A stretch of 44,929 bases of DNA, the filler included, from Catajapyx aquilonaris (taxonomy: Eukaryota), in assembly GCA_000934665.2 (NCBI GenBank). It is 2 parts of 2 records of this genome, joined end to end, with 100 filler letters (N's around TTAATTAATTAA, not from the genome) between each part and the next. Parts side by side here need not be neighbours in the genome. Positions count along the whole stretch, not along the records: positions 1 to 22,423 come from JYFJ02005867.1; 1 more part is not named here. One strand, given 5' to 3'. Below the pieces are notes generated by a model. It was not told where the DNA came from. It was given only the letters and a program-made list of their open reading frames with translations, and did not search any database. The translations under genes and the position numbers were made by a program. Below, in pieces: positions 1,528-44,423 of this stretch (the stretch's first letter is position 1; every line of letters begins with the position of its first letter).

Positions 1528-1571
1528 TATAAAAATGATGACCTTAGAAGGCCTATAATTCAGTCTATCAG
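1528..1571 (+). promoter_or_regulatory. Core promoter and short non-coding first exon of the granulin-like gene
   Basis: TATAAAA at 1528-1534, arthropod initiator-like TCAGT at 1560-1564, then consensus donor AG|GTAAGT at 1571/1572; acceptors at 1643 or 1651 precede ATG 1665. Confidence 0.65.
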
Positions 1572-1664
1572 GTAAGTGCTAAGAAGATCCAACAGAAATC
1601 CTGCTCAAAGATCCACATTTCGTGAATTCCACTCTTCTATTAGTGTTCCAGCAAATCATCAGCA

Positions 1665-2087
1665 ATGAAGGCTTTCATGTTCTTGGCTTGTGCAGCTTTG
1701 CTATTGGTAGGGTCTAACTGTGATTTTAAAAGGCATATGGTGGTAACAGGTGGTTTTTGCATAGGCTTTGGCCTGGGAAACAGCAGCTGAAGATGTGACC
1801 TGTCACCCAGAAGCTGAAGTTTGCGAATCTGGACAGTGCTGCGGAGAAAAATGCTGTGACTTTGACAAGGTTAGTAGTCTGCCATATCACGTAACCAATC
1901 ATGTCGTTGTGTAACCTCCACACGAGTGCGCTAATTGATTTTATCCTATTACCAGGGAACTTGCTGTGAGAGTGGGACCCACTGCTGCCCCAAGGCATAT
2001 GATTGCGTAGAGAATAACATGTGTAAACCCAAGAAGCTCCTGGGAGGCGGCCTTGCTCAAGCTTTCCCTGCTACCGAAATGTTTTAG
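1665..2087 (+). CDS. Secreted single-domain granulin-like peptide, 92 aa (exons 1665-1706, 1765-1869, 1956-2087)
   Basis: Two phase-0 GT-AG introns (58 and 86 nt) give MKAFMFLACAALLL|ALAWETAAEDVTCHPEAEVCESGQCCGEKCCDFDK|GTCCESGTHCCPKAYDCVENNMCKPKKLLGGGLAQAFPATEMF*. Hydrophobic signal peptide plus 12 Cys in granulin order C-C-CC-CC-CC-CC-C-C with the HCCP motif. Confidence 0.85.
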
Positions 2088-2214
2088 CTTCCAAATGTTT
2101 AAAACATTGTAATTGCTGTTATTAATGTAAGACACTGTGTTTACATAATTCCCATGTATTGATAATACTAAGGTTCAGTACATTTCATGTGATAGGGTAT
2201 ACTACTGTCGGCTC

Positions 2215-2220
2215 AATAAA
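2215..2220 (+). terminator. Polyadenylation signal of the granulin-like gene
   Basis: AATAAA about 130 nt after the TAG stop. Confidence 0.6.
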
Positions 2221-4719: not shown

Positions 4720-4804
4720 CTACACAGAGAGGGACACATAGCTGTTATACTGTTGGATGTTGCGCTTCAGAATGTCGGCACAGAGACCCAGCACTCGCTC
4801 AAAC
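4720..4804 (-). CDS. Pka-R1: PKA-RI last coding exon
   Basis: (R)[30 protein letters not shown] at 4722-4720. Confidence 0.95.
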
Positions 4805-7800
4805 CTGTAAAAAAAAAGTGAATAATCATCCCAATGTCACCAAAAGATGCTCACAATTTTATTGAGCAATTACTCATTCACTACAACATGCATGATGTCA
4901 TTTAATGTACCTTTACAGGTACATAGAAGCTGGTGTGTGTTTCTACTTGGATGGTACAGTATACGAGTCAGTTATTATATTCCTCATAAGGGTGGATAAT
5001 TGAAGGCAAAAATTTGACGTTGCACTTGTTTACATGCTAGTGAAGACTGAAAATTCTAGTTTGCTGGCTAATTTCAAACCTTTATGACTAAATGGAATTC
5101 ACCAGGCAATTGGGCATAAAAAATTATACTTTGCATGAACATGACTTAAGGTTAACTGAGGAGTTAGCTCTTGTTTATGTATAGGCTAACTCTGTAGTTA
5201 ACAATAACTTTTGCTTATACGACCTGCCCTGGTGCATATAACTCAAAATTGCCGAAGTGTTGGAGGGAGTGGATTTAACTTGTATTCTCATGATATTAAC
5301 TCTCTCCATTCCATATCGGCATACCCATTTTGTCACTCAACAGGTAGCTTTATTTATTTAAAAATATGATTTTTAAAAAGTCATCACTAGAGAACGGATT
5401 TCTAGGTTCTAAAAAACCCTCAAATAGGTAGGCATTTAGGCCCTGAAAAGAGTCAAAATAGGCTCTTAAATAGGCACTATAAATCAAGCTGGTTCTAATT
5501 TATTTTAATTTCTACTCATATTTACAGCCTACTCCTGGCCATGGAATTTTGCAGAACAGTAACGAACTAGCAGTTATTCCATATTTTCGTTGGTTAATCG
5601 CAGTTATTCGGCGACAGTTAAGATCCTCCCTCACGGGGAGCCGATATGGCCGATAGAAAATCCGTCGGGCCGAATGTAGCAGCTTATTTAACGGCTATTA
5701 ATAACAGTTATTTCGACTCGCAAAAGCTGTTAACGGCATATTACCCGGGATCTTGCCGATCAACCGCTTCTTCGCTTGTCACAGGTTGAAGTGGGAGGGA
5801 TTCCCTGAACGGAAAACCTGCAGAACTCTCGAAAATCTTGCCGAATGGCGTGAAAAAGGCCGAAATAGGCACTAATAGGTGCTAATAGGCCATTTAGGTC
5901 CCAAAACCCGAAATAGGCATTTTTAGGTTCTATAAAACTGCGATTTTTGAGGTCCTTGTGTTATGAAACGGATAGATATTTTGGTTCCGGTGTTCTGCCT
6001 ACAAAAGAAAAAGTAGGTAAAAACCTAGAAATCCGTTCTCTAGTCATCACATATACGTACATTATCGTACATTAGCCTGTTCTATTAGGCTGAAATAATT
6101 TTGAACAACAAAATCTGTCCTCAACACCTTTTTCCTTCTCGCTTAAATCCTTCCTTACCCATGTGTGTATATTGCGCACTTCAAAATATCATTTCCTACT
6201 TTCACGGTTAAATAAGAATACTATTGGTAAAAATATGGCAACTATCCCATGACAAGGCCTTTACATTTCATATGCTCCCAAGAAAAGATGTAGTTCCTTA
6301 GTTTGCTTCTGTACCCTAATATCTTAGAACCTCACCTTGCACGATCCAGCTTGACACACTTCAAGGGTCCATTGGACATAACAGTGGCTGCTCTGGGGCG
6401 ATCTAACAGCAGAGCAATCTCTCCTATAATGCATAAAACAGTCATTAGAATGAATCAGGTGCACCTGACACATTCCTTGACCATACTCACCAAAGTAGTC
6501 GGAGGGCCCAAGGCGACCAACTTCAACAGGCTCTTCTCCTTCCTGCCTGTACTGCATAACAATAGCAGTCCCCTCCAAAATAATATAGAAGTCGTTCCCA
6601 GGATCTCCCTGCCTCACTATGGTCTCCCCATCCTCAAAGGCCACAGGCTCCAGGGCATCCGCAACAGTTAAGCGTTCCCACTTGTCCAGGTTCTCTGCCA
6701 TAGGTTAAGTATTTTATTTCCAGTTTAGTTGATCTTTACATTTATTTCACACCATCAGAAAAATACAGTAAAACCTGTCTGTACCAGAGTCATGCTCTCC
6801 CATGAACCCGTTACTGAAAAACATAGCAAAAATTCCTGCTCAATCCAGGGTCCATTACAGGTCTTTTCCTAGCCTTCTCAAATCAAAGTAATCAAGCCTG
6901 GTAGCACATTACATCTTAGAATCAACATGACTCAAATTGATATACAGCACATGTTGAAAATGTGCATATAATAAATTTTTGGCTACTTATTTACTGTTCT
7001 GTGCCTGAAGAAGTATTCAAGTCAACTTTGGACCCTTTAAAAAAATCGAAGATTAAATTCAGCCAAATCAAATGTTGATTTTTTTTAAAGCAATAAAAGT
7101 ATCCCGGTAATGCACAATTACATTTTTTAAGTCTTGATTTTTTTATTGTATGGATTCAATTGCAGACCAGTCTTATCAGATATGGTAAGTTCCATTATTT
7201 GGCATTTTATATGGTTTTCCAAGTCATTCTGTACCACACAAGGTCATCCATTAGTGCTCCCCTAAAAAATCATGAACTTGTTCCAAGATCTGGGACAATT
7301 TCCAAGGGTGGGCGGCAGTTCATTCATGCATTTTATATTTTTTTCCTAGTTTAGTATTTCCCAATATAATGAAATCTTGTTTATTGCAGGAAAATATCCT
7401 GCAACACAGTAGTTGCATACGTCCAATGTTGGACATTAATCGCGTCTTACTGCTAATGACATTTTTCGAAGTGGCAGAATAAAGAGTCGAAGCAATGGAT
7501 AGTGCCAGCTGTGCAAGCAAGATTCGTTCTTCTAACGCTTCAGAAAATGTTGCTAGCAGTACGAGGCGATTAATGTCCAACACCCTACAGGCTTCACTGT
7601 ATTTAGAACTGACATAGACATACTGTATCCACTGACCTAGGATAGAGACTTTGGTGAGGAATTCCTCATACATCTTCCTTTTACGAATGGTGGAGCTCAT
7701 GAGGATGCGCCTGTACGTTTCCCTGTCAATTCCCCAGAGCTTCACATCTGCCTTGGCCTTCACTGTGGCTGCTCGGGGTGTACCATAGATTAAGGCCAGC

Positions 7801-10800
7801 TCACCAAAGCTGCCTCCTTCACTTATGGTTGTCACTAGCTCATTATTCACAAACACCTGAAAGGCAAACATGATGTCTTTAAAAAATACCCTTGGTATTG
7901 TTGGGATCCACACATATTTTGAAAGTAGCATGGAAATTGGTTAGGATACCCATTTTCCTCTGTAGATAACCATGCCTTACGTGTTTTTTCCAATATACGA
8001 GTGTATGTATTCGTATATGTCTCTGAAAAAACTATTACAGTAGCACCCCGATTATCCGTCACCCATGGGACTGCGGCATTGTCGGATAACAGAAAAGGTC
8101 GGATAATCTCAGGAGTAAAACTTTAATGAAGCACAACAAAAAACATAAAAACATGAAATATCTTTCAATATTATGGTTTTCGTAAGAAATGGAGAAGTAT
8201 TTATCTTTTACACACAGACTCTACTGTACTGTATTTACAATTTAACAAAGGCAACACAAACAAATGCGTAGAACATTACAGTATTTCATGAAAAAATAGA
8301 TTTATTGCCGGAGCGGGACAGTTGGATAATAGGGGCTCTACTGTACTTAAGTCTCGACCAGAACCAATACGAAGCAAAATTTTAATTACTAATCGTAGTT
8401 AGTGTAGACTTTTTTATGTCCCTCCATTTTGGACAGTTGGATTATGAATCTTGGCAACATCTTTTTACCGGCTTAGCAGTCTTCTTCCTCACAATGTACT
8501 TTAACCCACTGTTTCATTATTGACATTCTCACTTATTTTATACATATGCCTTGAATTACTGCATCTCTCCGAGATAATATTTTAAATTATTATAACACTA
8601 AACTGCATACCGTTCTTATAATGAAATCTTGTTTGCATTTATGTCTGATCAAAGTACAATGACCTCCTGATATCCTGACTGAGGGCTTCAAAGTGAGAAT
8701 TCATCAAATCACTACCTGACCATTAATTCTATGAAATTTACCAGACATGGACAATCAACAATACAAAAAAGAATCCCTTATTATAGGCTAAAACAGAATC
8801 AATATTCATTCCCATATAATCCAGATAAATCCACACATACTGTAGTTTCCAAACAAACCTCAACTTCTCCAATATCAATAACGTAGAAGTTGTCCCCTTC
8901 ATCTCCTTGCTGGATGATTATCTCTCCCTGAAGGATATTAACTGGAAACATGGCATCAAATATATCCGACCGTTCATTCTCATCCAAGTGTGAGAACAGC
9001 ACGTTCTTGGCAATGGCCTTTGACAAGGCTGCCATTGTCTTGTAGTCCTTTGGCACCACCTGAAGGCAGAGAAAGAAGTATTGCTTTAGTAAATAAAGAA
9101 GGATTGAGAACAAAAATTAGCCACTGCCTTCAAACTCCTACTCCTACTCACTCCTACTCCATCTCATTTTAAAATACGATGCAGTGTGACTTTTCAGAGC
9201 CAAACCCACCATGCCAATTTTTGTTACACTGGCTCTGATGAAAAGTAATGTAATCAGCTAATTAGTTAATCAGCATGAATCACGATTGAGGCTCATTGCA
9301 TTACAGCAGCTACTTGCATTAACTGGTAATGCTGCATTGGGGCGCACACAACGCTCTTGATAACAATAATCAGTGTTCCAAATGAGTGTGCTCCAAAATG
9401 ATGGTAAAACATTCATCAAGCCTCACTCTTTTAAACCATAGCCTGCTTGTGTTAGCAACATCAGTTTAATTTATGAAATCTCACTTATGTCTCCTTTCTA
9501 ATTAATTCCATATTTGGTCCCACTTATAGTGATTCAAAATACAGAAAAGTGAAGCCTGTCTGTAGCTGACTCTGCAAAAAAGGTTCCTTGCAGAACAGAT
9601 TTCCATTGCACCAACAGGAACATGTTGAAGTACTGTTGAGGCTGAAGAAAAAGATCCATGGTGGATGTGATTCCTGCATATCCAAGTCTGCCATAGACAA
9701 GTTACCATGTATCAAGTTTTTAAAAAAACCACTCATCTATTAAGATATTCACTAACATCTTAATTGCAGTGAGCTAGTAAATCTTGCAAAAGTTTCAGAT
9801 TCTCTCCACAAAATTGTACTCGCATTTCTTAACAAAAGAGAAATCCCAATCCTTGAAAGCATCTAATTATATTCGCACAGGCATTAGGAAGGAGTCAGCG
9901 TCCTGTCCCTCCCTTTGCCACCTTCAAAACAGTCCAGAATAGTCTTTTGGGATGTGACTTTGGACTGCCCCCCTGGCATCTTGCCCCTTCAACTTGAAAA
10001 TGGGGAACTTAAACATAGACTCTCAACTGAACTCTTGAAGTGCGTAGGAACCAGTGAATGCATCCCTCCAGTGAGATTAGAAAAAAGCTAGAGCAGTATG
10101 GGGTTACGGGCCAAGGTAAAAAGCTGGATGTAGCTGAAAAATGTGCTTGCGCATGTGAATGAATGAAGTAGTTGGAAAAGAGGGGGAGAGACCCTGGAGT
10201 GCATTCAAGAGAGGAAGGGAGCTGTTCTTTGCACACCTGCCAGCCAATTGTCTACAGGTCTGCAACAACTGGCAGGCTGCATTGTTATCAACCCTGACAG
10301 AAGGGGATACAGCGTGCGTCATGAAACATGAATGTAGAAACAAGTGGCAGTTCCACAACATTTACAGCCTCAATAAAATTACGCTCACTTTGCAAGCTTC
10401 ACAGCTGAGGCAGGCACATTCTACAACACAATACATCTTTATGGATGTCCGGATCTGTCTCTCTCTCCTTCTCACTTGTATTTCCCTTCTTCGTTCCCTC
10501 ACTTCCTAGTACCCTTTGCTACGTATTTAATGTGCATCTCTCTATTTCACCAATAGCAAGCAGTTGGTAAAAATTGTGAGCTACACTTCTGTTGCTTGCC
10601 TCCACTGCAAATGAATTTATATTACTGATGACTCTCACTGTATTTATCTCCTGCAACAAACCTTATTCCTATAAAATGGCAACATTATCTAAAACAGGAT
10701 AATGAAAATGTACCCTAAATATCAAGAGCCTATATTATATGTCAATCAAAATTCAACCCTCTGAATCCTCAAAAGCAATGTCCCATAAAGCACAGGAACA

Positions 10801-22423: not shown

Positions 22424-22523
22424 NNNNNNNNNNNNNNNNNNNNNNNNNNNNNNNNNNNNNNNNNNNNTTAATTAATTAANNNNNNNNNNNNNNNNNNNNN
22501 NNNNNNNNNNNNNNNNNNNNNNN
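22424..22523. other. Assembly gap with artificial linker
   Basis: 44 N + TTAATTAATTAA (stops in all six frames) + 44 N = exactly 100 nt. Confidence 0.9.
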
Positions 22524-22625
22524 CCTTCCCTACTTACTGTGTCATATGCTTTCTCTAAGTCTACAAAGGCAACAAAAACCTTCTTGTTTACAGCTAAATA
22601 CTTTTCTATCACGAGTCTCAAAACA
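22524..22625 (-). mobile_element. Non-LTR retrotransposon (RTE-like) reverse transcriptase fragment
   Basis: Translates as VLRLVIEKYLAVNKKVFVAFVDLEKAYDTVSRE, the RT motif F-x-D-x-x-K-A-[YF]-D; truncated by the gap. Confidence 0.8.
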
Positions 22626-23499
22626 ATCAGAAAAATCCGGTTGCACCACCTCCAGAAAAATTTCCAGCTAGAAAAGTCGTGTCTTTCATTGTTGATGGCA
22701 TTGTTGACAACAATGAATTCTGCCTCTGTTCCGAAATAAAAAGTACAGCTGGACCTACACGGTGGTTATTGACTAACTCTGAAAAATAATTCCCTTGAAT
22801 TCCTGCAAAAATTATCCTATCATCCGGGGTCATATTGCACTCTCTTGCAATCCATTCGATCGAGCGTTTTTGGGCTAAGCCCTCATGTGGGTGTCCCAAA
22901 AGTGTTAAAAACTGACCTGCTGATGTTCCGGATGCATACTCTGCGAATGTAGCGCACGACAATGCAGATCCTAGCAGCTAAGACGACTTAAATAGAATGG
23001 AACGGTCTTGGGAACGGTGCTCCCTCTCTTTCCCTCCTGTTTAGCCGCCGCCACATTGGAACACCACTCAAGTCAAGTCGGACAGATCATACACGGAGTT
23101 TCAATTGCACACTGATTTAATTACTAAAGCGGAATTAAGTATGCCTTCAATATATTCGGTTAATAATTAGTGTGTAGAACAGGGTCGTTAAATTAACTGA
23201 ATTAAATACAGTAGGCAATTCCTTATTCAGGCAATTACACTGTTTGACACTGACAGCAGCGCCAATTGCAGCGCCGCCCTGGTGGGGAGTTGATGTAAGC
23301 TGTCAGTTCGTCTCGTGCCGTCGAGGAAGGACGTAGGCTATCTCCTTCCTTCGGCCAACACCCAACACCCAACACAACAATAAAACCGGGGACGCCCCTG
23401 CCGTCGAGAGCTGCAGGAACTGGCTGTGCCTCAGGTCAGTAAACAGCTGGTGGATTGGTGCCAGACGGCGACCGGCGGCGGGGTACTCCTGCTGGAATA

Positions 23500-24603: not shown

Positions 24604-25804
24604 GTCTCAACTGGTCATCCGTGATCCGTCCATCATAATTATTCTCCAGGGGACCGAGATAATTATATGCACGAAATGACCCAAGACGTCACGACGTATG
24701 TCAGGAAATATGACCTTTTCATCAACTTCACGTGTAATCCAAAGTGGAATGACATAACAGATGTGCCAATGCCTAATCAGAAGTCTTTCGATAGGTATGA
24801 CATCGTTTGCAGGGTCTTCAGGTTGAAAGTCATCACTCATCAGCCTTATGAACCTACTGACTAAGGGGAAGGTGTTCGGAGCCAGCACCTGTCATCATAA
24901 TATGTACTCCGTAAGAATGGCAAGAGAGAGGTCTTGGCACCGCATGTAGGTACACATTTTGTTGTGGCTGGAAACTTCAATTACTCCTGACCAAATTGAC
25001 TCTTTCATGTCTGCCGAATTTCCAGACCCAGCAGACACAGATCCTGTCCTCCATGAGATCATTAAAAAGAACATGATTTATGGTCACCGTGGTAAACTCA
25101 ACTCGAACTCTCCCTGCGTGAAGAAAGGGAAATGCACAAAGATGTTCCACCGTCGCTTTGTTCCTGAGACATGCACCGGACAGGATCGGTACCCACCCCG
25201 CATATCGGCGTCGTTCTACAAAGAATGGAGGGTTGTCACTTTAGATAAAGTCCAGAGCAGGACTTCTCCACGGCCGCTTGAAGAGTTGCTATCTTCAAGC
25301 GGCCGTGGACTTCTCAATGTTGACAACAGTTTGGTAGTGCCCGACTGTCCCCTCCTGTCCAGAACATTCAATGCCCACATCAACATGGAGTTTGTAACTC
25401 TGTCAAGTCCATAATGTACGTGTGCAAGTATACATAAACCAAGGGAGTGACCAGGCAAACCTTCGCCGTCACTAAACAAAGTGCAGTCCACGAAACTGTC
25501 CACATGGGGAAACATGATGAGGTGCAACGTTATCAAACAGGAAGATACGGTACATTAGCACATCTGAGGCTGTGTGGAGAATCCTCTCTTTCCCCATTCA
25601 TGATCCGACGCGACGGTGCTCCACCTCTCTGTCCGCTTGGAGAAGGGGCAAAGGATTTATTTCATGGAGGAGAGCGTGGCAGAAAATCTGCAAGAACCTC
25701 CAAAGACAACTCTTTTACCTTTTTTTTGAATAATTGTGCCAGCACGACCACTTTGCCATAACCCTCTTTGGCCGTGTCCAATTTTCCGGATGTAGTACGG
25801 AATA

Positions 25805-26784: not shown

Positions 26785-28912
26785 GGTACATCTCCATTTG
26801 CCATAATTATGCTATTTACTTAAGCCCAGTCTCGGAGAAATGACTGGTAGACTACAATAAACGACCCATTTGTACTACTGTACGGAAGTCTACCAGTCAT
26901 CATGCATGAGAAGAGTGAGTGGAAAATCACCTCATAACCCAACTCCTACCAGCTGAGCACCCGTGTATATACGTGTTCACATCGGATTTTTTCGCCTGTG
27001 AAAATCAAATTTACTACATACTGGATCTTGGCCCCCAGATAGGAATTGGGTAGGGGTACATGCATAAAATTTGCAGAATTTTTCTATGGATGTTCACACA
27101 CCTCAAGTCAAAGGTCAGAGATTTTGACCTCAAAATAGCATAACCACTTTTGAGAAAAATATTACCTGGCATATGCTAGATACCTTGCTAGATACCCTGC
27201 ATGGTTAAGTATACAAAACAGGCTAAACAGCCAAAATAATTCCTAAATAATTTACTTGTTTACTTGTACATCAATCGATTTATGTAGGGTATTTGCGATT
27301 TGACACATTCCAGGTCACATGGCTACTCTGCATGTGACACAGGTGTCATTTTTTCCAAGTTTTACCTTATTCGTCATATCCCATTCCAATGTCACAATCC
27401 TAATCTCATGGACATAGCATATATATACTACATGAGGGTTGTACCTTGATTTTTTTTGCATGATTTGTCATGGAATTACACCTACTTTTCCCTGTATAGT
27501 CACAACAACATTATGGCCACAATTATATGTATACTACGCATTTGCATGGCATTTGCATGATTCACCTTGGCATTTGCCCTCATTTCCGTTAGCAGGAGCA
27601 GTCCAACAGGGTGTCTGGTGTCCTGAAAACAATAGCTGGAGGAGGAAGAGGCTTATCACACCAATGATGTCATGTCTAAGTTGAGTGTCAGTACAGGGCC
27701 AGGCACATCCACTTTAATAGGTTCACCTCATTTTACTGCGTTATGTCAATTAGGTATAAGGCGCCTAAGGTAAAAATTATTCTTCCTCACCAGCCGTAAG
27801 TGTCTGCAGAGAAAATAAGATGTTTTACTGCATTATCGACACAGCCATGTGGATTACCCTTGGGCGTGCCCTTGGGCAATGATTCATAGCGTATGTCTCT
27901 GCCGTCATCCTTGTTTCCAACCATGTAGCCCATTTTGCTTATCTCTGACACTGCAATCTCTTGCAGCAGCCCTTCCATCGCCCTTCAGCCTGATATCTCC
28001 AGCATTTGAGCCATCCATACCTACCTGACTGGAAGTTTCTTTGTTGCACGTGTGAAATTTGTGTAGGTCTAATTTTTTAATGCAACACTCTGCAAACTTG
28101 TTTTGAAAGGTGAGTGTCATTTTGAATCTTTCCCAGAAGGGAGTGCTAAAATGGCTAAAATCCACAGTGCTAGTTCATCCAGAATCATCCTGCATATGGC
28201 TACTATCACAATGAGGTCTTGGCTACTCTTTGAAAGTTATTGCGTGATTTGTGCATTATAACTTTCCTTCATAAAAGTGAGTACCGGTATGGTACTGATT
28301 ATATTTTTAAGTTTCAGTAAGAATGGGTTTATAGGGTGGCTGGGAGGGAGACTCACTGTTAATGGGTGGGGCAATGCGTTACGTAACGATCCAAATGATA
28401 GTTACGTAACATTTTGCCCCACCCATTTTCATTCAAAGATGTTTCATGCAACAGAATTTTGATACAGCATACTTTTTTGTCCAAAGCAGTACTACTTTGT
28501 TGAAATATTTTTGTCTGAAGGTCAAAGGGCCAGTTGCTGCACTGATAAAGAGTAGATCATGGAGAGAGGATACGAGTAGTAGGCCAACTTATTGTGGATT
28601 GTTGTCGAGAATAAGCATAACAATGGAATCATTTACTTCTCCATGCATGTGATGCAACTGAGTCATTCGTCTCAGGGCAAAGTGATTTGCATTGCTTTGA
28701 ACAAAAAGGTGAACAAAATAAAAAATAATTATTATCAATGAAGTCAGGATGCCTTTGGACGATGCATCAGATAAGATGATCTTGATATTAATCTTGATGT
28801 TAATTATTATCTTGATCCATTTTTGCAAGTCAGAATGGAGAATGAAATGAAATGAATGAAGGAATTGAGGTCTCAGAGAACTGCCGAGAAAATCTTCGGT
28901 GTGTGTGTGTGT

Positions 28913-29803: not shown

Positions 29804-32439
29804 GACAGCTTTGGTGTATGCTGTTGTTGTGTGGGGTGAGATATACTGTTAGGAACAAAAAATCGATGCCACAGCACAGGTCATGGTCAGTAATCTTACT
29901 GGTGTGATCTGTGCTTCGGCAAGCTTACACTGGCCAGTGTATGATGAGCTGATGACTAATTTTTGCACTTGCTTCAGGGTTTCCTTGCTTCAGGGAATAC
30001 ATCAGTACTGTTCATGGGAGATGGGTTGATAGAAGCATGTCAAAAAGACAAAATTGAAATGGTACACTCATTGAGCAAGCAGGAACAGATGTAGACTAGA
30101 TCTCAGGATATCGAATGTCCCCCATTTTTTTGCATGTGAGTCATTCTGTTGTATTTGTGTGCCATTGCTTAAAATTTAAATCAACAGCTACTAATATTAG
30201 GATGTGTGTACCTATCCTTTATTTAAAAAGGGGGTCTGGCCTGAAAAAATGGATTCTGTTGTTCACATTTGATGCCAATTGTTCCAATGGAGAGGTTGCC
30301 ACTGCATCCTGCCTTCAGGAATGGATACAAGAGGTGAGTGATTTTTCAGCCCAAGTTCAGACTGCTGTGTAACCCATTTTAAAAATCTGATGCATTGCTT
30401 GCACAGTTGCAAAGGAATTGATGAAAAGGGTGACACATGAGGCATACATTACTAGGTGCATTAGCAGTTTTCCTGAAATGGCAACTAACGATGTCTTGTG
30501 TCTTGCCTGCCAGTACTGGTGAGTGCATGTCACATTTAGACAATTATTTTTTCAATTGCTGTTTGCGCTGAATGCTGACTACTTGCCACCTAATGTAATA
30601 ACCTGTGTAGAAAATTAATGACATCAAGCCTCCTAATGACTTTAAAACTGGACAATTTTTTAGGGTCGACTATGAATGTTTGTCTTATTACAGTCCGCAG
30701 TGCAATAGAACTCCTTATAATATGAAAGCAACAAGAATATTGTAAGCTTTCCATGAAGCTCGGAAGTGGTATTTGACCTCCATGAGTACAGATTCAGCCT
30801 GGGTAGTCTTTACTTACAACCAGTTTCGAGAATGTCTGATGCTGATATTCAGCTGGACAGAATAAACTTCTTTCCTCATCTCTAATACCTAATACAATGT
30901 AAGTAGTTGCGATACTGTATTGTTTAGGAAGGAAGGACAAAAAAAGTTTGTCTTGTCTCTCTCCCTCCCCTGAATATTTTCGATCAGTGTTCCAACCCAT
31001 GCATATGACTGTCAGGTAATTTTTCAGGTGTGTGATATGAAGCCTTATATTTTTATTTGCTAGGGACAACCCATTTTAGGAGCAGCTCTGAATGACCCTT
31101 GTTGCCTTGCATTCCTCCTGTAATGGAACAAATGCAAGGCTTCTCATTTTCTGAACTGCTGGGTTGTGATAATGGAACACTACAAGTCGAACTGTATTCA
31201 ACTACATGCAACTTATGATGTAATGTTTCACTTTGCAATGAGTGAAATCCTGAAGGTTTGCTGCTTGTACGGGCAGTTCATGATACAAGACCAACTGGTG
31301 GCTGATTTTATACGACTTGGATCTGGATGTGGTCACTTTGATGACGACATTCCTGACGCTTATGGCTAGGTTGTATATGTGGAGGAGTTTCACACTAGTT
31401 AAAATTTTAAACTGACTCGGGATGGCTCATGCCACTAAAAGACATCAGTTTCACTACTTATGATCATATTCTCAGGCTCTTGCGTGAACTTTTATGGTTC
31501 AGTACCATGAGAAAAATAATTCTCTGTAATAGCTTGTGTGATTTCTTCCTGGCATTCTTGTTATAAAAGCCAAGGCATTTGGGTTAAGAGTTACTCTTTG
31601 TTTTTATGGCGATTCCCTGCGAGGCTAGTGCTGGGCTGTCATCCGCACTCACCTGTCTCAAGTATTGGGGTCCTGATCAACAGGTGATGCCCTGACGAGG
31701 GTCTCTACCTCTCGAATATGCTCAAGAACTTTCTGATGTTTGGGGACGTTGACTTGACTATTTTCTGAAAGGGCCCAAGCTGGGTTCAGAACTAGAATGG
31801 CACTTTTTCACTTGGTTTATGAATAATCCCCAGTAGTTAGCTGTCTTATTGCGATGTAATAGCCTGATAATCAACGATCATCACATGTACGAGTTGATGC
31901 CATCCCATTCAAAAAGCCAGTCAGTGCGGGGACTACGTCAAGGGCTCAGTCATAATCTACTTGAACATCTACAAAGATTCGAAGCTCCTGGAAAATCAAC
32001 ACTGAACAGCAAGCGACAAAATCACAACAATAAGCTGCCTTGTACCTTTTGGGACAGCTACAATTTCAAAAGAGGTCCATGATGGTAGGAGTTATTTTGT
32101 TCATGAGAAGTGACAGTAGGGATGCATATTGGTAATGAGTTAGCTGGACACCACTTTCCTATGGAAACTAGTTGTGGAAAGAAATACATTATCTCCAGCT
32201 GAATATCAGCATCAGACCTAGAAACTGGTTGTAAGTAAAGACTGACCAGGCGGAATGTGTACTCATGGAGGTTCAATACCACTTCAGGGCTCCATCATAA
32301 AAAGCTTAAAATATTCTTTTTGGATTCATATCGTAAAGAGTTCTATTTCACTGCGACAGTAAGACAAACATTTATGGTTGACTCTAAAAATCTGGCCAGT
32401 TTCAAAGTCATTAGGAGGCATGATGTCATTAATTTTAAA

Positions 32440-34674: not shown

Positions 34675-35787
34675 GTTTCAGCTCCCATTCAGCTTAGCTC
34701 GTCAAGTAGATAAAGGTGACATATATAGATAACTCTTTTAGGGAAGGGCTAAAGTGCACTTTTTCCTACAGGTTGGGTACAGTACACACATCCTAATATT
34801 AATAACCTTTGATTGAAATTTTAAATAATGGCACTCAAATGATAGATAATGATTCACCTGCAAAAAATGGGGCACATTCAATATATCGTGAGAGTAATAG
34901 TCCACATCTGCTCCTGCTTGCATAATGAGTCACACTATTTTTTTTCTCTTTTTGACATGCTTCTGTAAACCCCCATTAACGATACTCATGTATTCCCTGA
35001 AGCAAGTAAACACAAAAGAGAAATATTTGACATCAAACTCCTGCCAGTGAATGCTTGCCGAATCTCAAATCACACCAGTAAGACCATTTACAGTGAGCCT
35101 GCACACTTACTTAAACTAAAAGATGTCAACATTATAGGCTACTCACTTTTATGAGGGCAAGTTTTAATTCACGTCATGCAATAATAACTTGCACAAAGTA
35201 GCCAAGAATTCAGTGTTGTAATAGCCATGCAGGATGAGTATGGATGAACTAGCACCTTGGCTGGTAGCAGTCCCTTCTTTGAAAGATTCAAAATGACACT
35301 CCCCTGTCGAACGAAGTTTGCAATGTGTCGTATTAAAAAATTAGGCCCACATTTCACGGGTGCAACAAAGGAACTTCCAGTCAGGTAGGTAGCAATGGCG
35401 CAACATTCTGCTGGAAAATATCAGGCCAAAGTCAGAATTCATTGAATTTAGTATTGAATGTAATTATTATGGTGCACTGAGATGAAATGGGTGTTTGAAA
35501 TTAGAATATTTGAAGCCCAGGTTAAGTGAGAATGAGGTCATTGATGGATGAATACTATGTGTGGAGAAAAAAAAGGAAATTGGTATGAGCAATAATGGGG
35601 AAGAGTCTTTATGGTCAGGGGAGTTATTTTGGGAATCGATCGAAAAATGCAAGAACTGATCATTCTCACTTGCACTGTAGCTCTCGTTGCATCGAAAAAA
35701 ATTAATTTGGGAGAACTTGAGTTCTGCCTTTTTGCGAGAAATGTGTGCGGCGTTAAAGGTGATAATGAAACGAAGTTCACGGAAGAA

Positions 35788-35930
35788 AGTAATTTGGCTT
35801 TATGTGGCATACCTTTTTTGGCTGGGTTTTATTCTAAAGATTTAATCATTGCGTTTTGTTCAATGAGATTTATTAATTGGTTTAGTTTGTTTTTGATTGT
35901 CTTTTCTATTGGTCTTACTGTCTGTTATTT
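35788..35930 (+). pseudogene. nad5: NUMT: mitochondrial NADH dehydrogenase subunit 5 fragment
   Basis: In invertebrate mitochondrial code: SNLALCGMPFLAGFYSKDLIIAFCSMSFINWFSLFLIVFSIGLTVCY, the conserved ND5 motif L.G.PFL.GFYSKD; T-rich; flanks unrelated. Confidence 0.9.
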
Positions 35931-36130
35931 TCTTTCCATTTAGTGAGGATCATAATGAGTAATGGAAATTATGCTCTACATGCATAATGCATGATGTTTT
36001 CATGAAGACATGACATGATAAATGTTCAGAACCAAGTTCCTGAAGAAAAGGACATTTGTCAAGGACAGAAAATAATGGGAGATTCTGATATTCTTGGAAA
36101 TTATGATTATTGAATTATTGGTACATAGGG

Positions 36131-43104: not shown

Positions 43105-44263
43105 TTACATGACCCGTGCTGGTATATGTTGCTTAGTATAGTACAGCTGATAAGTCCCCACATAAACAATCTCCAGGTCATCCTTGGTCGCCGCTAGAAT
43201 CTTCAACTCGGATTCAGTCAAGTTCAGACTCTCACTTCTCGAGTGGAACTTGACATGTTTCAGACTCCTGCACCTTTTGGCCACATCCATCAGACCGCTG
43301 AAGCTTGCACAAGTCTGGATCAGGATGAGCTTGACCAGTGAAAGGCAGTTTTGGGACACGAGGAACAGATGGTGATCGTCCAGTGTGGACGATCCGTGGA
43401 CAGTGAGCACCTCCAGGTGCGGGAACCTTTGCTTTTGGAACAGAGAGGTCAGTGCTGTGTGACTTGGAAGGTTCTCTTCGAAGGTGTGGAGGAGGAGGTG
43501 CAGCTCCCGAAGGTTCTTCTGCTTTTGGACCCCGACTCGCAAGAAAGTGTCGAACATCGGGTTCACAAAGCACGTGTAGAGAAACTCCAGTCTCTGCTTC
43601 GACAAGGCCACCATTGTCGATTCTTCCCGCACTTGGCCAAGCACGTATAGTTGACGGAGTTGGCCGTTGGAGCCAGCCATCAGCTCCTTCAGCTCTTCAT
43701 CGCAGTTTTGAGGACGATACATCAACGCCTGGGTGAGGCTGGGAAACCTCGGGGTGAAGAGAAGCGGAGTGAGCTCGCACCACGTCATAGGCTTTCAGGC
43801 TGAAAGAACGAAGCTGCAGGCAACCTGAGAATATTTCTACTGGGTTCCTCATGGTATGGGCACACGACAGGTTGAGGTTGACGGTGACCTCGCGCAGGTT
43901 GGTGCATCTTCTGGCTACTCTCTTCATTGCTATTACATCTAAGGTCTTTATCCCCAGTACCTCCAGTCCTTCCAGTCCACTCCAGCAATGAGCGACTGCC
44001 TCCAGGACAAGGGGGTGTTCTGTGAAAAAGTATTGCAGACACAGCTTATTGGGCTGTGGAGCCATCCGAACCACTTCTGCTGCTTCTTCGTCCGTCATCT
44101 TCTGACCGTCCAGCACCACATTCCTCCAGAGACTGTGGTCCAGGACCAGCCTGCTCCATTCCAGGCAGACTCGACTAGACCGCAGCCTGTCTCGTGGCTC
44201 CAGATACGAAAAGATGAGGAGCTTGAGCTCATCAGGCAAGCCAGGGAACGACCCAGTTGCAAT
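43105..44263 (-). CDS. F-box/LRR-repeat protein, main exon with a 1-nt frameshift near 43794 (5' exon not identified)
   Basis: F-box LPDELKLLIFSYLEPRDRLRSSRVCLEWSRLVLDHSLW followed by LRR-like units (RCTNLREV, GCLQLRSF, NCLSLVKL, RCRSLKHV). Deleting one A in CTG AAA GCC fuses the two ORFs (..FSLKPMTWCEL..). No in-frame ATG upstream; acceptors precede 44263 and 44323. Confidence 0.85.
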
Positions 44264-44423
44264 CTGAAAGGAACCAGGGACTGGATCAGCACCGGGACCA
44301 GATATGCACCCATGACATGACCTCTGAAAAGTTGTTGCAATCGGAGAAGGAAATATGTTCAGCCACTACGGTATAAGACCTGAAGCTCCTACCTCTTCCT
44401 GACAAGTCTCTCTTGGAGGCTAT

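What the first reader, a model, noticed from the sequence alone, without database searches (positions are those of the whole stretch)
1528..2220. Complete ~700-bp gene for a secreted single-granulin peptide, missed by ORF calling
Seen: TATA, initiator, micro 5' exon, three short coding exons with GT-AG introns, AATAAA; the product is a signal peptide, one 12-Cys module and a 20-aa tail. Established: granulin modules have this Cys order and are split by a phase-0 intron between the 2nd and 3rd CC pairs, as here; most progranulins carry tandem modules; a granulin-like peptide (PMP-D1) is known from locust brain. Inference: a short-form, strongly TATA-driven granulin (growth factor, wound/immune or neuro-secreted peptide) likely to be missed by annotation.
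Basis: partly seen in the sequence, partly recalled or inferred. Interest (0 to 1): 0.8.

Follow-up and report, generated by a model that had tools for sequence, protein, structure and literature searches.

The report
Short-loop single-granulin secreted peptide gene
A small, intact, intron-split animal gene encodes a secreted peptide with one granulin (growth-factor-type) module; it is one of over a dozen similar genes in this genome and stands out mainly because one loop of the module is cut to the bare minimum.

Summary
The gene is real. Exons 1665-1706, 1765-1869 and 1956-2087 join in phase 0 to a 92-aa signal peptide + 12-Cys module + 20-aa tail. One contig of one run (library type not on record) skips exactly intron 1870-1955. 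The other junctions and the 10-nt first exon remain unconfirmed. It is a granulin: the C-half hits PF00396 and the module is split N-exon/C-exon as in known granulins. Signal-plus-one-module granulins are already known (flukes, earthworms, C. elegans, slime moulds).

(1) The genome holds 12 further modelled genes with the same signal/N/C exon plan, plus three less-split ones; the published maximum I saw is six. (2) Only this member has a 3-residue loop between Cys pairs 1 and 2; the other 24 modules examined have 7-9. It keeps just 2 of 12 non-Cys consensus residues. No orthologue was found.

Most likely a diverged, secreted haemolymph signalling or immune peptide on a trimmed hairpin ladder; function is inferred, not shown. 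The scan's index showed no look-alike on other DNA.

The parts
1528..1535 (+). TATA box candidate
   Evidence: Sequence; 34 nt upstream of the initiator A; function untested
1560..1571 (+). Initiator (1560-1565) and predicted 10-nt non-coding first exon (1562-1571)
   Evidence: TCAKTY match and strong GTAAGT donor; closest paralogue C6969 also has a strong donor 409 nt and an acceptor 38 nt before its ATG; no reads cover it
1572..1651 (+). Intron 1 (ends 1643 or 1651)
   Evidence: GT-AG, 72 or 80 nt; unconfirmed
1652..1706 (+). Signal-peptide exon; CDS 1665-1706 (14 codons, phase 0)
   Evidence: Hydropathy peak 2.8; a similar hydrophobic phase-0 exon was found upstream in 12 of 12 split paralogues; SignalP not available
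1707..1764 (+). Intron 2, 58 nt
   Evidence: GT-AG; junction not covered by the run (contig ends at 1769)
1765..1869 (+). N-half exon: end of signal peptide and Cys 1-6
   Evidence: Translation; 1769-1869 present in the spliced contig; ends 4 codons after CC2 as in 12 of 12 split paralogues, one of them at a GC donor
1837..1857 (+). CC-x3-CC minimal loop (Cys3/4 to Cys5/6)
   Evidence: 3 residues against 7-9 in 24 of 24 other modules examined; low-confidence half-module model shows 2-residue strands either side of a Gly-Glu turn
1870..1955 (+). Intron 3, 86 nt, phase 0, between Cys pairs 2 and 3
   Evidence: Skipped precisely by one contig of run X1; branch-point-like CTAAT 25 nt from the end
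1956..2087 (+). C-half exon CDS: Cys 7-12, 20-aa tail, stop
   Evidence: PF00396 20.5 bits, E 5.5e-4; 25.1 bits in the genome search; human granulin 2JYT E 0.0069
2088..2220 (+). 3' UTR with AATAAA at 2215-2220
   Evidence: Sequence; run X1 contigs cover up to 2190

Best explanation
An intact, spliced gene for a secreted single-module granulin, a diverged member of a genome-wide family of such genes. Shown: reading frame, Cys pattern, one splice junction, family membership of the C-half, paralogues. Inferred: the signal peptide is cut after residue 15 or 17 and the ~75-aa acidic peptide (module net charge -6) folds into the granulin ladder of six disulfides and four stacked hairpins. The second hairpin is trimmed to a two-residue turn: Cys3 and Cys5 face each other across this hairpin in known granulins, and removing four residues from a 7-residue loop keeps that register. 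The peptide most likely acts outside the cell as a haemolymph or tissue signal in growth, wound repair or immunity, as reported for snail and fluke granulins. Because the trimmed hairpin is where family-wide and module-specific residues sit, its target probably differs from that of the canonical paralogues.
For: Frame, splice signals and Cys spacing. Spliced contig across 1869/1956; no second DNA copy of the gene body that could be a retrocopy. PF00396 on the C-half. In-script spliced module: 25.9 bits on an HMM of 17 paralogous modules (reached by 0 of 1000 full shuffles, 2 of 1000 Cys-fixed shuffles) and 19.8 bits on an HMM of 7 external modules (0 of 1000, 1 of 1000). Same intron position and signal exon in 12 paralogues. 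Closest paralogue C6969: 11 of 34 non-Cys identities, tree support 81. Cys3/Cys5 cross-strand contact and connectivity: PMC7463432, passages. Signal + one module with growth activity: Ov-GRN-1, PMC2749447, passages. Snail granulin as haemocyte cytokine: as cited in PMC7148315, passages.
Against: Only 2 of 12 non-Cys consensus residues are kept; the GxWGCCP motif that Palfree 2015 suggests matters for the generic fold is gone. The N-half alone has no Granulin hit; its best Pfam rows are Conotoxin_I2 (E 0.41) and WBP-1 (E 0.56), and it scores 1.7 bits on the paralogue HMM. The C-half alone is 0.4 bit under the Pfam cut-off in hmmscan. The half-module model is low confidence (pLDDT 61.5). No tissue, induction or activity data exist, so the function is borrowed from distant relatives.
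Confidence: 0.5

Rival explanations
1. Co-opted scaffold: the granulin ladder is used as a fast-evolving secreted effector (antimicrobial, anti-protease, or salivary/defensive gland peptide), and the expanded family is an effector repertoire, not a set of growth factors.
For: At least 13 single-module genes, 9 of them in two clusters; module net charge from -6 to +7 and only 2-6 non-Cys identities to 16 of 17 other modules; truncated Arg-rich relatives in the C1185 cluster; loss of family consensus residues; granulin-like folds recur in cone-snail peptides with short loops (PMC11035057, PMC7191308, passages); very high contig depth in run X1 (2142 against 5 on a flanking contig; a poor measure).
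Against: The peptide is acidic, unlike most membrane-active antimicrobial peptides (recalled); the Conotoxin_I2 resemblance is at chance level (E 0.41; Atlas 0.76 with low recognition); no gland or induction data.
Confidence: 0.33
2. Neurosecretory peptide, counterpart of the locust pars intercerebralis granulin-like peptide (P80059).
For: An insect granulin entry P80059 exists (Palfree 2015); its brain origin is recalled, the original paper was not seen; a dibasic pair follows the module.
Against: No sequence comparison with P80059 was possible; canonical paralogues (C567, C1373, C1919; 52-69 bits on the external HMM against 19.8) are better orthologue candidates.
Confidence: 0.1
3. A transcribed but decaying duplicate, with the loop deletion as damage.
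For: Long branch and loss of consensus residues; no orthologue found.
Against: All 12 Cys, the frame, the splice sites and the signal peptide are intact despite about two-thirds divergence at non-Cys sites from the nearest paralogue; the deletion fits hairpin register; spliced contig.
Confidence: 0.07

Closest known systems
Single-module secreted granulins: Opisthorchis viverrini Ov-GRN-1 and its Clonorchis and earthworm homologues (PMC2749447, passages); C. elegans CCD72453 and Dictyostelium granulin (PMC4527844, sections 3, 14, 20 and passages)
   Same: Signal peptide followed by one 12-Cys module and a short tail; Dictyostelium and most animal modules are split into N and C exons.
   Different: First CC-CC loop of 3 residues instead of 7-9; loss of T before CC1, G before and P after CC2, and of D and G in the C-half; separate signal exon; member of a family of at least 16 modelled genes in one genome, where Palfree 2015 reports few genes per genome (up to six in ray-finned fish).
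Granulin/epithelin module, Pfam PF00396; human granulins 2JYT and 2JYE
   Same: C-half matches model positions 18-42 and 2JYT at E 0.0069; HCCP motif kept.
   Different: N-half not recognised by the Pfam model; not part of a tandem progranulin.
Insect granulin-like peptides: locust P80059, Manduca ABY61951.2, Aedes albopictus ABY61952.1 (named in PMC4527844; the original papers were not seen)
   Same: Small granulin-type peptides in arthropods.
   Different: No direct comparison could be made; orthology unknown.
Mini-granulin fold conotoxins (TxVIIB, H-Vc7.2, Phi-MiXXVIIA; PMC11035057, passages)
   Same: Show that short inter-Cys loops are compatible with a granulin-type hairpin.
   Different: 6-8 Cys, ICK connectivity, mollusc venom; no significant sequence similarity here.

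Membership tests
Granulin (PF00396) | 12 Cys in the order C-C-CC-CC-CC-CC-C-C | tested here: met
   spacing 6,4,0,3,0,6,0,5,0,5,5
Granulin (PF00396) | Profile match at the curated cut-off (20.9 bits) | tested here: inconclusive
   C-half exon alone 20.5 bits, E 5.5e-4; 25.1 bits in the genome search, on a stretch that includes 3 intron codons. The spliced product was not scanned against Pfam itself; it scores 25.9 and 19.8 bits on two home-made HMMs, above 998 and 999 of 1000 Cys-fixed shuffles
Granulin (PF00396) | Module encoded by an N exon (Cys 1-6) and a C exon (Cys 7-12) | tested here: met
   rule from PMC4527844 section 3 (the paper does not state intron phase); same position in 12 paralogues
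Granulin (PF00396) | N-terminal signal peptide | tested here: met
   Hydropathy and (-3,-1) sites after residue 15, 17 or 22; simple scans, not SignalP; junction 1706/1765 unconfirmed
Granulin (PF00396) | Typical (not strictly defining) 7-9-residue loop between Cys pairs 1 and 2 with GxxGCCP-like end | tested here: not met
   3 residues; 0 of 24 other modules have fewer than 7. PMC7463432 states that inter-Cys loops vary in the family, so this marks a variant
Granulin (PF00396) | Stack of four beta-hairpins | tested here: inconclusive
   Only the N-half was folded: pLDDT 61.5, two short hairpins; no structural match in either library
Granulin (PF00396) | Ladder disulfide connectivity and growth-modulating activity | not testable with these tools
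   Needs NMR or disulfide mapping and cell assays
Conotoxin I2 / framework XI-like peptides | 8-Cys framework with a significant PF17557 match | tested here: not met
   E 0.41, 11.2 bits against a cut-off of 27 on the N-half; the product has 12 module Cys

The most novel reading that the evidence does not exclude
This lineage has turned granulin, usually a one-to-six-gene growth-factor family, into a repertoire of 16 or more diversifying secreted effector peptides (acidic, cationic and truncated forms), and the window gene is a natural minimal-hairpin granulin with a new target.
Probability: 0.3. Interest if true: 0.55.

Novelty: new variant of a known kind. Interest (0 to 1): 0.3.

Why it matters
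As a gene find it is modest: secreted single-module granulins are known from several animals and amoebae, and short intron-split peptide genes are commonly hard to call. Two points have some value. The CC-x3-CC loop is a natural deletion of most of the second hairpin, the region where granulin activity determinants have been proposed, so it offers a ready test of how small the granulin ladder can be and whether that hairpin sets the target. The surrounding family (at least 16 modelled genes) exceeds the gene counts in the one evolutionary survey I read and hints that granulins can be co-opted as a diversifying secreted-peptide family in invertebrates.

Tried and rejected
Homologue searches: the C-half exon found no candidate among 77-2000-aa proteins or, with its 50-aa open frame, among 27-88-aa proteins. 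These need three shared 5-residue words, so the blanks are weak. phmmer with the N-half exon over 1.84 billion representatives gave 2 hits, both rejected as repeat artefacts (a bacterial cadherin-repeat protein and an unrelated tandem repeat). The ESM Atlas gave Granulin clusters at 0.76-0.81 for the C-half and nothing usable for the N-half, both below the lead threshold. A profile of 15 own-genome rows returned 8 canonical granulins among 397 candidates; none of the 7 complete modules in them has a short loop. No RNA holder is listed: the single run has no library record. A three-row alignment of the two exons with a paralogue misaligned the halves and was dropped. Fold searches with the 32-residue low-confidence model found nothing; this says nothing about the fold. 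The second own-genome hit of the N-half (C2054) is chance. Of 24 pattern matches, 5 were new places; all 5 were rejected on inspection. PF00396 rows C3584, C6377, C3897 and C8021 (below cut-off) were not counted, nor were C14123 and C12323, which look like second haplotypes. Conotoxin and WBP-1 readings were rejected on score. Literature: 7 searches showed, in listings and abstract starts, no report of a short-loop granulin or of an arthropod granulin expansion. Subscription papers (Nakakura 1992, Hanington 2008) are outside the library, and the supplementary tables of PMC4527844, which I did not open, may list arthropod single-module genes.

Full report
Observation. A TATA box at 1528 is followed by an insect-type initiator at 1560 (A+1 at 1562) and a strong donor after 1571, which implies a 10-nt untranslated first exon. 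Two acceptors (before 1644 and 1652) precede the ATG at 1665. Coding exons 1665-1706, 1765-1869 and 1956-2087 are all phase 0, with GT-AG introns of 58 and 86 nt. AATAAA lies at 2215. The product is 92 aa: a hydrophobic N-terminus (hydropathy peak 2.8; possible cleavage after residue 15, 17 or 22), 12 module Cys spaced C-x6-C-x4-CC-x3-CC-x6-CC-x5-CC-x5-C-x5-C, and a 20-aa tail. No + strand ORF of 80 aa covers it. The paired exon pattern occurs once in the window and in 0 of 300 dinucleotide shuffles (pattern drawn after the fact).

Transcript evidence. One public run holds the stretch; its library type is not on record. Of 3 contigs laid, one 297-nt contig covers 1769-1869 and 1956-2151 with no mismatch and skips exactly the 86-nt GT-AG intron. 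A processed DNA copy is unlikely, since a DNA search of the own genome found the gene body once (the second hit is only the first 94 upstream bases). Contig depth is 2142 against 5 on a flanking contig, which the tool calls a poor measure of expression. The two upstream junctions and the start site are not covered. This is one run of one study and may not be independent of the assembly.

Family assignment. The C-half exon matches Pfam Granulin at 20.5 bits, E 5.5e-4, just under the 20.9 cut-off, at 25.1 bits in the genome search, and human granulin 2JYT at E 0.0069. The N-half alone has no Granulin hit. The module spliced inside a script scores 25.9 bits on an HMM of 17 paralogous modules (reached by 0 of 1000 full and 2 of 1000 Cys-fixed shuffles) and 19.8 bits on an HMM of 7 external modules (0 and 1 of 1000). 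Palfree et al. 2015 (PMC4527844; sections 3, 14, 20 and passages read) define the module by 12 Cys, describe its encoding by N and C exons, list single-module genes in C. elegans and Dictyostelium and insect entries including locust P80059, and state that the motif occurs in few genes per genome, up to six in ray-finned fish. Smout et al. 2009 (PMC2749447; passages) describe signal peptide + one module in liver flukes and earthworms, with mitogenic activity for Ov-GRN-1. The architecture is therefore known.

Genomic context. The own genome gave 26 PF00396 matches, 22 over the cut-off. From these loci I modelled 12 further genes with the same plan: 6 on C1185, 3 on C1576, and one each on C2452, C6969 and C8042. 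In 12 of 12 the N exon ends 4 codons after the second Cys pair (one at a GC donor), the C exon starts 2 codons before the third pair and runs to a stop, and a hydrophobic phase-0 signal exon lies upstream. C567 carries an intronless 94-aa single-module ORF; C1373 and C1919 appear to carry three modules each. That makes at least 16 genes, leaving out two probable haplotype duplicates and 4 sub-threshold rows. These are my models, without transcript support. A complementary pattern search added no member (5 new places of 24, all rejected). The window gene is closest to C6969 (11 of 34 non-Cys identities, against 2-6 for the other 16; tree support 81 on a short alignment, most deep nodes weak). 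It is not in a cluster: its neighbour is a convergent PKA regulatory-subunit gene on the minus strand. The organism is an animal; 'arthropod' comes from earlier unchecked scan notes on this genome and was not tested here.

What is unusual. The loop between Cys pairs 1 and 2 has 3 residues. In 17 own-genome and 7 external modules it has 7-9 (3 of the 8 external proteins held no complete module). The gene keeps 2 of 12 non-Cys consensus positions (the H and P of HCCP). Takjoo et al. 2020 (PMC7463432; passages) give the connectivity (Cys I-III, II-V, IV-VII, VI-IX) and a cross-strand contact between the cysteines that I take to be III and V. By standard hairpin geometry (my inference), removing four residues from a 7-residue loop keeps this register and leaves a two-residue Gly-Glu turn. 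An AlphaFold model of the N-half alone shows this pattern (strands at residues 22-23 and 26-27 of the fragment) but at low confidence (pLDDT 61.5), and it matched nothing in two structure libraries. No orthologue was found, so conservation of the short loop in other species is open.

Mechanism. Shown: frame, one junction, Cys pattern, family ties. Inferred: secretion, a six-disulfide ladder with a trimmed second hairpin, and an extracellular role. By descent the most likely role is growth, wound or immune signalling (0.5); snail granulin is described as a haemocyte cytokine in PMC7148315 (passages), and the C-terminal part of Ov-GRN-1 is active on its own (PMC13348780, abstract only), which leaves room for activity despite the N-half change. 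The main rival (0.33) is a co-opted effector scaffold, favoured by the family size, clustering, charge spread from -6 to +7 and truncated Arg-rich relatives, and weakened by the acidic charge of this member. A neurosecretory role (0.1) and decay (0.07) have little support.

Novelty and verdict. A new variant of a known kind. Seven literature searches (listings and abstract starts only, apart from the papers named) showed no short-loop granulin and no arthropod expansion, but the library lacks subscription papers and I did not open the supplementary tables of PMC4527844, which may bear on this. The scan's index held no look-alike of the C-half on other DNA; the 8 granulin notes shown of 17 concern bacteria, algae and a protist. 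Interest 0.3.

Noticed in passing
G000:C1185:19600-38700 (L034-L036); G000:C1576:300-10300 (L038, L022): Two clusters hold 6 and 3 single-module granulin genes on the signal/N/C exon plan, with module charge from -6 to +7; one has a His/Gly-rich tail.
   Followed up: partly
L035 minus strand, G000:C1185 about 28300-28900 and about 31800-31970: Truncated relatives inside the granulin cluster: a signal exon, a short Arg/Gly-rich Cys exon and a CC-x7-CC exon followed by an Asp/His-rich tail (8 Cys in the first); possibly granulin-derived cationic-head peptides.
   Followed up: partly
window 4721-9116, minus strand: cAMP-dependent protein kinase regulatory subunit (type I-like by my reading) with cNMP-binding exons; last exon 4721-4806, convergent with the granulin gene. 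The low-depth X1 contig starting at 2267 may be its long 3' UTR.
   Followed up: no
window 35596-35943 +: Fragment resembling a mitochondrial NADH dehydrogenase subunit (PF00361, E 3e-4), probably a nuclear copy of ND5.
   Followed up: no
window 43105-44365, minus strand: F-box gene (PF12937, E 9e-15) with leucine-rich-looking downstream frames.
   Followed up: no
window 24950-25414 + and 22472-22765 -: Decayed mobile-element remnants: Helitron-like and LINE reverse-transcriptase-like frames (resemblance recalled; no Pfam hit for the first, the second not scanned).
   Followed up: no
G000:C14123 and G000:C12323: Near-identical to parts of C1185 and C1373; probably second haplotypes, so left out of gene counts.
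   Followed up: partly
L038:689 (G000:C1576): The N-half exon of one paralogue ends at a GC donor at the conserved position, or my model is off.
   Followed up: no
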